From Octopus sinensis (taxonomy: Eukaryota), in contig NC_043012.1 of NCBI RefSeq assembly GCF_006345805.1, forward strand, positions 9,176,001 to 9,240,000: 64,000 nt of DNA, written 5' to 3'. The translations under genes were made by a program, and so were the position numbers. Below the pieces are notes generated by a model, which saw only the letters and a program-made list of their open reading frames with translations, made no database searches and was not told the DNA's origin. Shown one piece after another: positions 4,998 through 59,886 of the stretch (within the stretch, counting starts at the first letter, position 1; every line of letters begins with the position of its first letter).

Positions 4998-5800
4998 AAG
5001 TGAGATCATCCAGAACAAAGAACAACAGATGAAACGTTGGGTGGAGCACTACTACGAACTGTATGCAGGAAAAAACAAAGTTATCAAAGATGCCCTGAAC
5101 GCCATTGTGTGCTGGCCAGTCCTTGAAGAACTTGACAACGAACCATCATTTGAAGAGCTCACTGAAACGCTCTGTGGTGAATGCAATCCTGTGTCTCGGC
5201 TGGAAGAGGGGCGAAGTACCACAAGACACGAGGGATGCAGACGTCGTCACGCAGTATAAGAACAAAGGTGACAAGAGCGACTGCTGCAACTATCGCGGTA
5301 TCTCTCTCTTAAGTATCATTGACAAATTGTTTGCTAGAGTTGTACTGAAGAGGCTTCAAGTTCTCGCTGAGAGAATCTATCCGGGATCCCACTGTGGCTT
5401 CCGTGCTAACAGATCCACCATCGACATAGTCTTCTTTCTCAGGCAGCTACAGGAGAAATGCAGAGAACAACAACAACAGCCCCTGTACTTCGCATTCATA
5501 GACCTGACAAAGGCCTTTGACTTAGCAGGGAGAGCCTCCTTGCCATCCTCCACAGCAGTGAGTGCCCACCCCGACTCCTCAGTATCCTAAAGTCTTTTCA
5601 CGAAGACATGAAAGGTACTATTTTTTTCGATGGTTCAACATCAGATGCCTTCAACATCTAAAGTAGGTTGAAGCAGGGCTGGGTTCTCGCTCCAACCCTC
5701 TTTGGTATTTTCTTTGCTTTCCTTTTGAAACACGCCTTCGGTTCATCCACAGAAGGCATCTATCTTCGCACCAGGTCGGATGGGAAGCTGTCTAACTTAA
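4998..5800 (+). mobile_element. RTE (BovB-like) LINE reverse-transcriptase fragment, frameshifted
   Basis: YKNKGDKSDCCNYRGISLLS...CGFRANRSTID..LRQLQEKCREQ..PLYFAFIDLTKAFD, then LKQGWVLAPTLFGIFF in another frame. Confidence 0.9.
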
Positions 5801-16575: not shown

Positions 16576-16693
16576 TATATAGAAGGGGCTTCTACAGGAC
16601 TAGAACTGTTTCATTCAGAGAAATCTTCAGGAAGCTTCCTGAAGATTTCTCTTGAATGAAACAGTTCTAGTCCTGTAGAAGCTCCTTCTATAT
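16576..16693. ncRNA. Head-to-head palindromic pair of type I hammerhead ribozymes
   Basis: Plus: AGCTTC-CTGAAGA-TTTCTCTTGAAT-GAAA-CAG(TTCTAGTC)CTG-TA-GAAGCT then AATAAA; mirror copy on the minus strand; centre GAAGCTTC at 16631-16638. Confidence 0.78.
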
Positions 16694-16763
16694 AATAAAT
16701 TAATTTTACTCTACTATGTATTGAGTACCTTATTTACTGTGGTTAACCCCGAATCAACCCGGG

Positions 16764-21813: not shown

Positions 21814-22184
21814 AATACACACACACACACATATATATATATATAAATATATATATGCATATATAAATATATATATACATATATACATATATACATACAC
21901 ACACATATATATGTATATAGAAGCAAAATATCAAAAAATATAAAAAACAAAACAAGTCAAAAGGACTTGTGGACAGTAAATGTATTAGGTTGGGGCTCAG
22001 TTTAAGTTCTAAACAGAAGATGTGTGTGACGTATCGAGCAAGGGTCTTCCTCAGAATGCGGAATGGTCTAGAAGAGAAGGAAAAGAATAGGCCGAGAAAA
22101 TGTACGTGTGAGGCTTCATGGCTGAAGTCGCACATATACAGAGAGACAGACGGACACACACACACACGCGCACACCCACACGCG

Positions 22185-22225
<41 letters not shown>

Positions 22226-22514
22226 GTGTGTGTGTTTGTGCGTGGTGCAATGTTTACGAAAAATACAAATAAACGACAACACACACAAAAAAAGAGGTAG
22301 AAAACTTAATGTAGAGTTGGTATTACTTTGACGCTCATAAAATGGGGTGAAAAAGAAAGGAAATGGATTAACGTTTCGAATATTCACTTTTCTGCCAAAT
22401 GATTGGATAATCAACGAGAGATTAGACGGAAAAAGAACATTGGCGAAATGCACGTATGCCCTATTGTTACGGCATGTTGAATATCCGATGTGAGTGTGTG
22501 TATATATATATATA

Positions 22515-37799: not shown

Positions 37800-39780
37800 T
37801 TGTCCACTTCAGGATTCTAGCGGCTTACCCAGTTACTGCGACTGCGCGCGAGTTTATTGTCGAAATTATGTTTCTGGCATACAGTTTTGAAGCCAGTATT
37901 CTTCTCGCTCGCCACAGGTACTCTCTTTTTGTCTTTTCCTTCATGTTGTAGTGTTTGAGTCCATCTGCCTCAAGTACTCCTGGGTATTTATAGCTGGATT
38001 GAGGTTGAATCGCCTTCATCGTTTCACAACTTGACAATCATATGTCTTCTGTCCTGACAGGCTTTCCTCGTCTCATCACCATCGTAGCACATTTTGAGGC
38101 TCTAACCTCCATCATAATACCATTAGAGAAAATCCGCACAGAATGGACCAGGTTGTCTAGTTCTGCCTCATTTTTCGTGAATAGTATCAGCTCATCCATG
38201 AATAACAAGTGGATAGTTTTCCCTTACCGTTTCCCAGGTCATACACCAACTTTGTTTTCTGTAGTATTTCACTCAAGGCGATCATTCCCAGCACGAAGAT
38301 CAGTGGGGACACACTGTTCCTTGGAAGATTCATGTCTTGATTTTCACATCTACTAGATTCCCGGCTGTCAATTCCGTTCTTCAGCACTTCATGCTATTCC
38401 CTATAAGGCTTCTCATATTTACTGTTACTCCGTACATCTCGATTCTTCTTATTATTCAGGAATGTGATATCATATCGTATACTTTACGATAGTCAACCCA
38501 TACCGTGCCATGCCACGTTTGTGTCTTCACCTGCAGTGTCCTGATAATTAGATTATCAATTAACACCTGATCCTTCGTTCCCCAGCTCCTCTTTCGGAAT
38601 CCTTTCTGTTCAGCAGGTAGCAGCCTACATTTTTCCAAGTATCTATACAGTTTACCGGCCAAAGCACCTGACATTAGCTTCCACATCAACGGAAGGCACG
38701 CTATTGATCTAAAGTTGGGTTCAACATTTCACTTTTCAGGATCCTTGGCACTTAACAACGTCTATCCTTTTGTCATCCAGCTGTTTATTGAACCTTCCTG
38801 GAAATACTCATCTAGGTATTGCACTATCCTTTCACAGAGTCCTCTCAGCTTCCTCATCCAATAACCATGGACCCCATCCGATCCTATGCTCTTTCAGTTT
38901 GAGAATTTTCTTAAACGCTTTTTTTTTTATTCTGTTGTTATCTTTATGCCTTCTTGGACTTCTGTATTTCTTAACCTATCTTGGATTTCATACTGTTACT
39001 CCGCTTCATCATTATGCTCTACAGGTTGGTCTCAGATCCCTCTCCAGAATGCCCTGCGTTCTTCTGCATCTGGTATCATTGTTAAGTGTAATTGCCCATC
39101 TAGTTCCTGAAACAGTTTCTTCTCATTTGCGTCAACAATCTGTTTAGCCTAATTGTTTTGTTTTATTGTCATATCCTCCCAGTTTTGCTTTGATTGCTTC
39201 TACTCTTTGTTTCAGTTCTAATATCTCATCATACCATTTATCTCTTATTCTATATTTTCCTTCCAGCATTATTCTTATGTTTTCGTTCTGCAATTCTCAT
39301 CCGCTAAATCTATAAACTTGTCCTAAATGTCTTATCAACTTTGTTTCTCACAAATTCGTCGACGCCAGTTTGTTCTCTTCTTTCGTATCCAACTCTATCT
39401 GCAGCAACCATAGTTGCAGACCAAATAATCTTGTTAGCTTCAGTTATATTTCTCGTCTGGAATAGCCCAAGGACCGAAAATATCTTTTCGGTTTATTCTT
39501 TGAGCTTGCATCAATCAATGTACCTCAGATTGATGGGTGCTTGATCCTGGTCTTCTCTAATATATCGGCACAGCATCTTCGCTATGTCTTGTTGGTCATC
39601 ATCGTATTCTTGTGATAGCTCTTCCCATTACTTCTGCTAGCATTTACATTTACACTTTGCTCTTCGTCTTCACTGCCGCCATATATTCCTCTGTTCTCTC
39701 TGGGTACATTATCTGTTGGTGAAGTGTTATTTCTATTTTCTACTTATGTCTTCAATTTCCATGCGTATTAGCTACGCTTT
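37800..39780 (-). mobile_element. Degenerate R4/Dong-clade LINE (RT domain)
   Basis: MWKLMSG...LLPAEQKGFRKRSWGTKDQVLID...WVDYRKVYDMISHS; SYKYPGVLE...SKLYARNIISTINSRAV; abuts (AAT)n/(GAT)n. Confidence 0.85.
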
Positions 39781-45076: not shown

Positions 45077-45396
45077 CGTACACCCTTGCACAAACTAATA
45101 CATACACACAAAGAAACAGACAAATATAGATATTCAGAGAGACACATACCCGAACACAAAAACAAAAACAAGCACACACATATATAGATACTAATTAAAT
45201 TCACATAAACAGAATAAAACACAGGTACACACATGGAGAGAGTAACAATAGATGTGCAAATGAATATGCATGTATACAATCATACATAAACTCGTATGCA
45301 CGCAAATATTTATACAAAAAAGTATAAACGTAAACAAACTCGCACTCATATATTTATATTTATATATATACACACCTCTCTCTCTCTCTCTCTATA

Positions 45397-45447
<51 letters not shown>

Positions 45448-45635
45448 AATTAGTAAATAAATGGCACAACAAAGTACCGATATTTACTGGAAATAGCGAA
45501 CGTAAAATTACGACGCTAATGTGTAGCTTCACCGCGTATGTATTAGTAAAAATGCGTGTGTGCAACAAAATAGAGAAAAAAAACCGTCTTACCTCCAGGG
45601 AGAACATCTGAAAGATGAAACACCGGAAAATGGAT

Positions 45636-45713
45636 AATGTGGTACCTGCAGGTTTCAGGTTTTGCAAGATATGTCTCTCACCATATTTGCTTTACCTTCT
45701 TCAGCCAAACATA
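45636..45713 (-). ncRNA. Type I hammerhead ribozyme, fully paired
   Basis: ATGTTTGG-CTGAAGA-AGGT AAA GCAA ATATG(GTGAGAGA)CATAT C TTGC AAA ACCT-GAAA-CCTGCAGG-TA-CCACAT. Confidence 0.85.
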
Positions 45714-45760
45714 TACCAAGACGAAACTACGATGTTACCACATAAATACTAACATACGGC

Positions 45761-45849
<89 letters not shown>

Positions 45850-45850
45850 T

Positions 45851-46189
45851 GTGTGAAGGCGCACGGCTCAGTGGTTAGAGCGTCGAGCTTGCGACCGTGA
45901 GGTTGTGAGTTCGATTCCCGGACCGGGCTGCGTGTTGTGATCTTGAGCAAGACACTTTATTTCACGTTGCTCCAGTTCACTCAGCTGTAGGAATGAGTTG
46001 CAATGTGACTGGTGCAGAGCTGTATCGGCCCCTTTGCCTTTCCCTTGGATAACATCGGGTATGGACAGGAGGGGCTGGTATGCATGGGTGACTGCTGGCC
46101 TTCTATAAACAACCTTGCTCGACTTGTACGTCGGAGGGTAACTTTCTAGGTACAATCCCATGGTCATTTATGACCGAAGTGGTCGCCCC
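45851..46189 (+). mobile_element. tRNA-derived CORE-type SINE (family D)
   Basis: A box CGGCTCAGTGG, B box GAGTTCGATTCC, then CORE-like GTGATCTTGAGCAAGACACTTTA...CACTCAGCTGTAGGAATG. Confidence 0.8.
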
Positions 46190-46237
46190 ATATATAGAAG
46201 TATATACATATAAATACATATATATGAATCTCTCTCT

Positions 46238-58579: not shown

Positions 58580-59200
58580 AATTTTCAAAATCTTTTATTT
58601 AATACGCAAAGTGAAGAATTGAAATGTAATCGATAGGTAGGTCTACATACTTTAGTGTTTAGTTGACTTTCCCTTTTGCAGTTTTTAATTCAGAAACTCT
58701 TTTTGGCATTGAACTGATGAGCTTTGTGATGTCTCTTGTGGAATTTCTGCTCACTTTTCATGCAACAATCGAAACAATTCATCTTTAGATTTAGGTTTCT
58801 GTCGAGTTTTTCCTTTAGCTCTATCTAGTATGCTCCAAAGATCTTCAGTTGGGTTCATGTCAGGAAATTGGTTCGGCCAAGGAAGCTTTTTGATCCCATT
58901 TTCAGTCAGCAATTGTTGATTCCTTTTCGCTGTGTGGCATGGAGCCCCATCTTCCATGAATAAAAACTCATTTTTCGTTATGTTATCGTGTGAATACATT
59001 GGAAGTAGTCTTTGATTAAGTATTTCGATGTATGTTTCAGAGTTTATGGTTCCAACACATTCGATCAGCTCAGAACGACCATTGCTGGGGACAGCTCCCC
59101 ATACCATTACAGAGATACCGTCATGTTTCACAGTTGGTTGGAGGCGAGAATTCAGATGTAGGATTTCTGTGTTTGCACATGCGTATGACGTCCCCATAAT
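58580..59200 (-). mobile_element. Tc1 (DD34E) transposase C-terminal fragment
   Basis: VKHDGISVMVWG...FMEDGAPCHTAK...WPNQFPDMNPTEDLW; D-x34-E counted. Confidence 0.9.
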
Positions 59201-59886
59201 AACGTCGAACACCAGATAAATCGAAGTGATAGGTAGTACTATGATGAAATACGAGGCGGTAGATGGAGTAAAAATTAACTAGAAGAATTAACAGGGAGAA
59301 GTGGATTTGCAGCTAGACACCTTGAGTGGCAACACCATACCGTCCAATAGCGACGTTGGATGCTGGACAGTATGAGTGGATTAAATTGTTCGGGATTCGG
59401 TCCAAACCTCCAGGTGTACAAGAACTGGAGAAAACAGGGTGACTAGTTTTATCTAGTAACGAAATGAGACGAAACTGTCCCTGAAGGTTCGAGCGAGGGA
59501 GACGAATGCGAACATCACATCCGTCATCTACTATCAGCGCCTGACAGTCGTATCTCGTCCCGCCTATGTCGTTTTACGTTCTGTGTTCAAATCTTACGCG
59601 CATGAAAGTTGCCTTTTACCTTCCGAGAGTTGATAAAAATAAAATATCAGTTTAATAATGGGATAAATGGAATCGAATAGCTCCCTTAGCTCAAAATTGC
59701 TAACATTGTGTCTAAATTTAAAAAAAATATTATGGATTTAGCTGATGAGTAACTGAACTGGTATAATGGTAAAACGACAGAGAAAATTGAGGTAACCGTT
59801 TGACATTGTAGAGGTACATATAAAATGGCGAGAAGTAGCTGGTAACACACACACACACACACACACAACACACACACACACACACA

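What the first reader, a model, noticed from the sequence alone, without database searches (positions are those of the whole stretch)
45446..45762. Textbook hammerhead followed by ATG micro-exon and 106-nt intron, all inside (TA)n
Seen (minus strand): a fully paired HHR, then tttcag|ATGTTCTCCCTGGAG|GTAAGA (45607-45593), a TACTAAT branch-like motif, and TTTCCAG at 45487. Established: PLEs are unusual retroelements that retain introns near the 5' end. Inference: a solo pseudo-LTR whose splice sites could be exonised by a host transcript.
Basis: partly seen in the sequence, partly recalled or inferred. Interest (0 to 1): 0.75.

Follow-up and report, generated by a model that had tools for sequence, protein, structure and literature searches.

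The report
Penelope-borne retrozyme with evolving hammerhead
This is a shortened copy of a 430-base jumping repeat, present about a thousand times in this genome, that carries a predicted self-cutting RNA and likely borrows the enzymes of Penelope-type elements; its intron-like signals are conserved but were not seen to be spliced.

Summary
The motifs are there. A complete type I hammerhead core (cut 45643/45642), the ATG micro-exon, donor, TACTAAT and acceptor all lie where stated; stem I is bulged, not fully paired. The stretch is a 5'-truncated monomer of a protein-free ~430-bp unit with about 1,100 copies. All 22 sampled insertions end in (TA)n, with tails, tandems and inversions: the Penelope-like (PLE) footprint. 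No ORF-bearing parent was found in 230 loci. It is best read as a non-LTR retrozyme moved in trans by a PLE. Copies form one rooted ladder of subfamilies (~37% end to end) whose RNA fold covaries, and in which stem III shrank to the minimal PLE form and regrew by a 6-nt duplication. Donor and acceptor are invariant along the ladder, but the branch motif and upstream AG are not. No spliced join appeared in 8 of 8 runs, no intron-less genomic copy exists, and splicing would give MFSLE-stop. Exonisation is unsupported. The acceptor pairs across the unit junction, around the fixed 3' end, which suggests a testable reason for PLE intron retention. The scan had not noted this family elsewhere.

The parts
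45445..45757 (-). 5'-truncated monomer (unit positions 119-433) of the ~431-bp tandem unit, youngest subfamily H
   Evidence: 98% to the natural unit of L008; 42 matches at 96-100% among 40 of 1202 candidates scored
45758..45763 (-). 6 nt at the 5' junction that do not match the family (filler)
45393..45445 (.). (TA)n tract at the fixed 3' end (target)
   Evidence: 22 of 22 sampled insertions have (TA)n within 30 nt of the 3' end
45764..45825 (.). (TA)n tract at the truncated 5' end
45637..45712 (-). type I hammerhead: stem I 45712-45705 with 45642-45637, core 45704-45698, stem II 45697-45694 with 45660-45657, GAAA and stem III 45656-45644
   Evidence: double changes in stems I and II among copies
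45642..45643 (-). predicted self-cleavage site after GUA
   Evidence: cleavage itself untested
45593..45607 (-). 15-nt ATG 'micro-exon'; ATG lies in hairpin 45617-45605, its 3' half pairs with 45630-45623
45587..45594 (-). 5' splice-site-like AG|GTAAGA, invariant in all 8 subfamily majorities
   Evidence: chance about 0.011 against the alignment's own background
45487..45592 (-). 106-nt GT..AG intron-like segment, never seen removed
45542..45548 (-). TACTAAT branch-like motif; one strand of a helix with 45754-45747; only in the young subfamilies
45483..45493 (-). acceptor-like TTTCCAG|TAAA; in tandem or circular RNA it is predicted to pair (11 bp) with the start of the next unit, a partner this truncated copy lacks
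45463..45478 (-). small conserved hairpin just before the fixed 3' end
   Evidence: (helix 20)

Best explanation
The stretch is a 5'-truncated copy of a protein-free, ~430-bp hammerhead-bearing repeat (a non-LTR retrozyme) that is likely copied into (TA)n tracts by the reverse transcriptase and GIY-YIG endonuclease of a Penelope-like element acting in trans. Shown: the copy number, tandem unit, fixed 3' ends in (TA)n, ~60-nt tails, 5' truncations and inversions, the ladder of subfamilies and the covarying fold. Inferred: tandem copies are transcribed; the hammerheads cut after GUA/GUC, most efficiently as a dimer through the palindromic stem III; monomers may circularise; the PLE protein binds the structured domain around the unit junction and starts reverse transcription at two sites (unit end, and ~60 nt further on), giving the two observed 3' ends. 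Only unspliced RNA is copied. The splice-like motifs are most likely kept partly as helix strands and partly as an inherited PLE 5'-intron/promoter signal; I put regular splicing at about 0.35. The window copy itself is likely a dead end: single, truncated, without the tail that pairs with its acceptor.
For: 1111 matches to the exon/donor block at <=3 mismatches, 427 exact, 430 to the 3' half of the hammerhead, controls 0. 431-bp head-to-tail units. Of 22 distinct insertions among the first 30 exact matches: 22 end in (TA)n, 7 carry a tail to unit position 58-65, 5 are partial tandems, 8 have an inverted piece; these are the PLE traits described in PMC8557442 and PMC11167929 (passages). The genome holds many Neptune-like PLEs (5029 GIY-YIG candidates, 150 scored, ORFs of 775-883 aa with the upstream CxxC motif). 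Fold on 32 hand-picked copies: 111 pairs, 98.2% of cells paired, 14 pairs with double changes, 0 of 500 shuffles as high, slid controls 31-47%; stem I C-G/A-U to U-A/G-C, stem II three pairs with double changes. Lineage changes hit 40 of 238 paired vs 75 of 197 unpaired columns. Whole monomers fold better than shuffles (z -3.4 to -6.5, only 12 shuffles each). Contigs of probable RNA runs cross the unit junction in 5 of 8 runs.
Against: No autonomous partner sharing the 3' end was found (50 GIY-YIG loci; 230 family loci), so the driver is inferred, and Naiad PLEs also favour (TA)n (PMC8557442 passage). Cleavage is untested; single-sequence minimum-energy folds of 6 of 6 monomers do not show the complete active ribozyme, and 8 of 9 predicted Xenopus retrozyme dimers did not cleave in 10.64898/2026.07.22.740005. 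The runs are only guessed to be RNA and are contigs, so expression, strand and circularity are not shown. Arrays are short (at most 4 units seen), unlike the long arrays of coral or axolotl retrozymes. The structure was derived from the same alignment it was counted on, and relatedness inflates the shuffle test.
Confidence: 0.8

Rival explanations
1. Solo or tandem pseudo-LTR of a still-present autonomous PLE, with a real 5' intron.
For: PLE footprint. Invariant donor, ATG and acceptor. An unrelated autonomous Neptune-like family here has TATAAAA, often CCACCATGG, then AG|GTAAA in its 3' repeat (13 of the 14 motif hits in 50 loci). Penelope has a 5' intron in its pLTR (PMC8557442 passage).
Against: 0 of 230 family loci continue into an ORF; PLE hits in L122/123, L147/208, L152, L219, L220, L244, L029, L267 were neighbours from other families in the four I read in full and unlinked by position or strand in the rest. 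The same ~430-bp unit is kept through all subfamilies. What follows the unit end is the unit start, not an ORF.
Confidence: 0.1
2. The splice-like motifs are only helix strands of a structured RNA and are never used by the spliceosome.
For: Upstream AG+ATG, exon, +4..+8 of the donor, TACTAAT and acceptor all lie in predicted helices, several with covariation. Upstream AG is absent in class Y; TACTAAT-type motif 0/8 Z, 1/14 A, 0/14 B-F. No join in 8 of 8 runs; contigs bridge both sites unspliced. 0 intron-less copies at <=1 mismatch.
Against: The invariant block at the donor is exactly positions -2 to +6, including three unpaired bases, while flanking paired bases vary; the acceptor strand never changes while its partner does. 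Joint chance about 6e-4 for the two pre-named sites (columns not independent). In two runs of one study a contig ends exactly at the exon end (L008:1667), a weak hint.
Confidence: 0.45
3. The window copy's splice sites are exonised by a host transcript.
For: Consensus-like donor and acceptor on one strand; in this truncated copy the acceptor lacks its pairing partner.
Against: No host-gene Pfam domain in 300 of 317 window ORFs of >=55 aa (only RT and DDE remnants; short exons would be missed). No loose end at the donor among those listed (4 and 59 rows not shown). In-frame stop after the acceptor.
Confidence: 0.04
4. A SINE-like repeat moved by a LINE (RTE, CR1, L2), with the hammerhead as a passenger.
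For: Fixed 3' end and 5' truncation also fit LINE-type priming (own knowledge); LINE RT remnants are common in the loci.
Against: Two alternative 3' ends ~60 nt apart, partial tandems and 8 of 22 inversions are PLE traits; no poly(A) or LINE-like tail; covariation shows the hammerhead is under selection.
Confidence: 0.06

Closest known systems
Metazoan non-LTR retrozymes (Cervera and de la Pena 2020, PMC7229834; results and discussion read)
   Same: Tandem protein-free unit in the 150-450 bp range, low GC, type I hammerhead in each unit, short palindromic stem III, highly self-paired monomer; the mussel family is 350-390 bp and lacks loop 1-2 contacts.
   Different: Mostly dispersed monomers and short partial tandems with a clear PLE footprint (TA target, tail, inversion); long stem II; invariant splice-like sites; older subfamilies have the minimal PLE-type ribozyme. 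Circles and cleavage not shown here.
Pseudo-LTRs of EN+ PLEs (Neptune, Naiad, Penelope/Poseidon; PMC8557442, PMC4209133, PMC11167929)
   Same: (TA)n bias, 5' truncation, partial tandems, inverted 5' pieces, optional tail from two RT start sites, minimal hammerhead with palindromic 15.2-16.2.
   Different: No ORF. Tail ~60 nt rather than 30-40. The intron-like segment lies downstream of the ribozyme, whereas in D. virilis Penelope the intron ends at the 5' side of helix I.
Xenopus retrozymes as non-autonomous PLE derivatives (10.64898/2026.07.22.740005; main text through discussion read)
   Same: Proposed origin from pLTRs and mobilisation by PLE enzymes; monomers dispersed.
   Different: That work covers mainly vertebrates and explains tandems by local amplification; here the tandems arrive as partial tandems with fixed ends, and no parent pLTR was identified.
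Non-autonomous Chlamys elements such as MRC1 (PMC8557442 passage)
   Same: Short non-autonomous PLEs with head-to-tail insertions.
   Different: Those share 3' ends with known autonomous families and mostly lack hammerheads.

Membership tests
Type I hammerhead ribozyme | Core CUGANGA, GAAA, NUH with three stems, stem I open | tested here: met
Type I hammerhead ribozyme | Stems kept by compensatory change | tested here: met
   stem I 2 of 6 pairs, stem II 3 of 4 pairs with double changes
Type I hammerhead ribozyme | Rfam hammerhead model hit | tested here: not met
   the long stem II may explain it (inference)
Type I hammerhead ribozyme | Self-cleavage | not testable with these tools
   needs in vitro transcription; no raw-read RNA run was offered
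Non-LTR retrozyme | Tandem unit of a few hundred bp with a hammerhead in each unit | tested here: met
   431-bp spacing, up to 4 units
Non-LTR retrozyme | No protein, no LTR/PBS/PPT | tested here: met
   no Pfam hit in frames across the unit; no PLE ORF joined; PBS/PPT not searched for specifically
Non-LTR retrozyme | Highly self-paired monomer | tested here: met
Non-LTR retrozyme | Expressed as linear and circular monomers | tested here: inconclusive
   contigs cross the unit junction in 5 of 8 runs, one nearly closes on itself; fits tandem or circle; RNA status is a guess
EN+ PLE (autonomous) pseudo-LTR | Flanks an RT + GIY-YIG ORF | tested here: not met
   0 of 230 family loci; 0 of 50 GIY-YIG loci carry the unit; not exhaustive
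PLE-mobilised insertion | Fixed 3' end, optional tail, partial tandem, 5' inversion, (TA)n target | tested here: met
   22/22 TA, 7/22 tail, 5/22 tandem, 8/22 inverted
Spliceosomal intron | Conserved GT donor and AG acceptor | tested here: met
   invariant in 8 of 8 class majorities
Spliceosomal intron | Conserved branch point | tested here: not met
   TACTAAT-type only in G and H and 1 of 14 A; another branch site is not excluded
Spliceosomal intron | Removed from RNA | tested here: inconclusive
   no join in 8 of 8 contig sets, which drop rare forms

The most novel reading that the evidence does not exclude
A retrozyme that keeps a working spliceosomal intron whose 3' splice site is one strand of the helix that docks the Penelope reverse transcriptase: splicing destroys the docking helix, so only unspliced RNA can jump. 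That would be a cis-structural explanation of why Penelope-like elements retain introns, testable in a 430-nt RNA. The same lineage records a hammerhead going from a 1-bp stem III to the minimal dimer-only form and then, by a 6-nt duplication, to a monomer-competent form.
Probability: 0.2. Interest if true: 0.8.

Novelty: new variant of a known kind. Interest (0 to 1): 0.5.

Why it matters
Retrozymes are known, and their mobilisation by PLEs is proposed but indirect. This family carries the PLE insertion signature on a protein-free unit, which is direct genomic support. Its single ladder of subfamilies is a natural series of ribozyme variants (minimal to canonical) that can be assayed side by side, bearing on what minimal PLE hammerheads do, which PMC7761336 calls a mystery. 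Intron retention by PLEs is unexplained (PMC8557442, PMC3846280 passages: antisense template or unspliced sense template); the overlap of the acceptor with the helix around the reverse-transcription start offers a concrete test. As a single genomic copy the window stretch is ordinary.

Tried and rejected
Rfam found no hammerhead. A recalled Pfam accession for a PLE domain is not in the library. The search for an autonomous partner through 50 of 150 scored GIY-YIG loci gave only a 15-nt chance match inside one ORF family. Minimal-ribozyme and older subfamilies were fetched with 3-4 kb upstream in the hope of an ORF; all were the same unit. No RNA holder is listed as such. Four 2-mismatch hits to the exon-exon junction are unrelated to the family. 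The L160 stretch folded turned out to be an inversion junction and was discarded. Class labels were wrong (pattern slip) and were redone; one search crashed after printing its statistics and the tree was printed. A weak metallo-beta-lactamase hit at 21921-22328 is a (CA)n read-through. A recalled likeness of the plus strand to U1 snRNA was dropped: Rfam did not report U1. Earlier findings by sequence and by words: none.

Full report
Observation. The hammerhead core is complete and was the only hit of my motif scan in 128 kb, but stem I is bulged, the active fold is 4 kcal/mol above the best fold of the isolated region, that region folds no better than shuffles, and Rfam misses it.

What it is. 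A search of the own genome gave 1202 candidates, 40 scored, 42 matches at 96-100%. Many lie 431 bp apart: the window holds positions 119-433 of a head-to-tail unit. Exact counts: 427 copies of the exon/donor block, 1111 at up to 3 mismatches with two degenerate bases, 430 of the hammerhead's 3' half, 223 with a GUC site, 66 of the minimal GUA/GUU type, and 154 of an older class; all reversed controls 0. The first 30 exact matches are 22 distinct insertions: 22 end in (TA)n, 7 run on ~60 nt into the next unit, 5 are partial tandems, 8 carry an inverted piece. Partial tandems, inverted 5' copies, an optional tail and (TA)n bias are the PLE traits in PMC8557442 (passages); PMC11167929 (passages) ties the tail to two internal RT start sites. 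The genome is rich in Neptune-like PLEs, but none of 50 GIY-YIG loci carries the unit, and none of 200 + 30 family loci continues into a PLE ORF; nearby PLE hits are other families (four read in full). The search was not exhaustive. From its repeats the genome looks like an octopus; that is recall, not a call.

Lineage. From 253 hits, 69 partial ones and duplicates were dropped, leaving 117 cores, 114 with a readable stem III. With stem III cut out, the tree is a ladder A-B-C-D/E-F-G-H; terminal branches shorten towards H, the window's class (A+B median 0.0135, n=39; G+H 0.0047, n=46; p=3e-4; tandem copies not collapsed). Adding older classes Z and Y (8 of 30 Y loci, three of them partial; 32 of 75 full units picked by hand; no full C unit) roots it Y-Z-A-B-D/E-F-G-H with bootstrap 95-100 at most class steps; Y is 37% from H and 17% diverse within. 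Stem III between GAAA and the cut triplet reads CCTAGG in Y, CCGG in Z/A/B, CCGGTCCCGG in C (a 6-nt duplication; 3 copies), 10-nt variants in D-F and CCTGCAGG in G/H. Computed hairpin energies are +2.0, +6.0, -3.3 (D), -1.8 (F), -0.4 (G/H) kcal/mol; self-duplexes -8.3 to -23.5. So the lineage passed through the minimal form that PMC4209133 (results and discussion read) describes for PLEs and then regained a monomer-capable stem. Activity is untested.

RNA structure. The alignment fold covers the whole unit. With the active ribozyme written in, 111 pairs are 98.2% paired, 14 have double changes, 0 of 500 shuffles reach this, and slid controls give 31-47%; the count of further pair types did not exceed shuffles (217 of 500). 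The structure came from the same alignment and kinship inflates the test, but the changes recur in separate branches and helices, including stems I and II. Lineage changes hit 40 of 238 paired and 75 of 197 unpaired columns; 20 of 27 changed pairs stay pairable in all classes.

The splice motifs. Against: each lies wholly or partly in a predicted helix; the upstream AG is absent in Y and TACTAAT is confined to G and H; joining exon to acceptor gives MFSLE and a stop; no join appears in 8 of 8 contig sets (8 of 24 listed runs; 7 guessed to be RNA) while contigs bridge both sites unspliced; no intron-less genomic copy at up to 1 mismatch. For: among the longest invariant runs from Y to H are TTTCCAG|TAAATAT (14), AG|GTAAGA (8, exactly -2 to +6) and ATGTTCT (7), against 165 of 248 paired and 82 of 186 unpaired invariant columns; chance 0.011 for the donor, 0.058 for the acceptor, 6e-4 together, with columns not independent. 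In individual old Y copies GGTAAG survives in 8 of 17 pattern hits, some of them off target. Two runs of one study break a contig exactly at the exon end, a weak hint. Absence of intron-less copies does not decide, since PLEs retain introns (PMC8557442, PMC3846280 passages). In natural dimer junctions the acceptor strand pairs over 11 bp with the start of the next unit, enclosing the main 3' end, and the tail ends just after the next hairpin (z -3.4 and -5.2). Splicing would remove most of that strand. This is the basis of the novel case; it is inference.

Mechanism. Most likely a non-LTR retrozyme in the sense of PMC7229834 (methods end, results, discussion read), moved by PLE enzymes as argued in 10.64898/2026.07.22.740005 (parts 1-3 of 5 read): tandem copies are transcribed, cut, perhaps circularised, and copied unspliced into (TA)n. 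The window copy is a truncated dead end. Exonisation has no support: no host domain in 300 of 317 window ORFs.

Novelty. The kind is known. I found no description of this family, of a minimal-to-canonical stem III series within one lineage, or of splice sites in retrozymes in seven paper searches (PMC7761336 passages). No supplements were read, the bioRxiv ones are closed, and Repbase/Dfam could not be searched, so the family may be catalogued there. Verdict: new variant of a known kind, interest 0.5.

Noticed in passing
L102:4919-5001 (oriented), also L035, L042, L046, L050, L054-L060, L105: An autonomous Neptune-like family has TATAAAA, in about half the copies CCACCATGG, then AG|GTAAA in its 3' repeat: a possible 5' exon and donor in a true pLTR.
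   Followed up: partly
run X11 laid on L008:1681-1808: One 234-nt contig has 20 other letters, most of them T>C on this strand (18 T>C places in the run), which looks like A-to-I hyper-editing of an antisense transcript; alleles not excluded.
   Followed up: no
run X15 laid on L008:1755-1800: Depth about 100 times higher over the acceptor/3' hairpin than at the stretch start, suggesting far more abundant relatives sharing only the 3' domain in organism B.
   Followed up: partly
window 16576-16700: Head-to-head palindromic stub in (TA)n with hammerhead-like motifs, a different family; noted earlier as e1-9596868.
   Followed up: partly
L044, L045, L049, L220: Other PLE 3' ends carry variant minimal hammerhead-like motifs ending GAAACCGGTH, the same stem III as classes Z/A/B (read by eye).
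   Followed up: no
window 45850-46190: A tRNA-like SINE-type repeat (recalled likeness) lies directly beyond the right microsatellite.
   Followed up: no
window 5099-5587, 38041-38223, 58754-59278: Reverse transcriptase remnants and a DDE_3 transposase remnant.
   Followed up: no
L013/L014/L023/L024; L179: Local duplications of 1.2 kb and 2.2 kb that each include a retrozyme insertion.
   Followed up: no
L033/L048, L040/L041: GIY-YIG hits of other kinds: a second PLE-type endonuclease family and host SLX1-like exons (label recalled).
   Followed up: no
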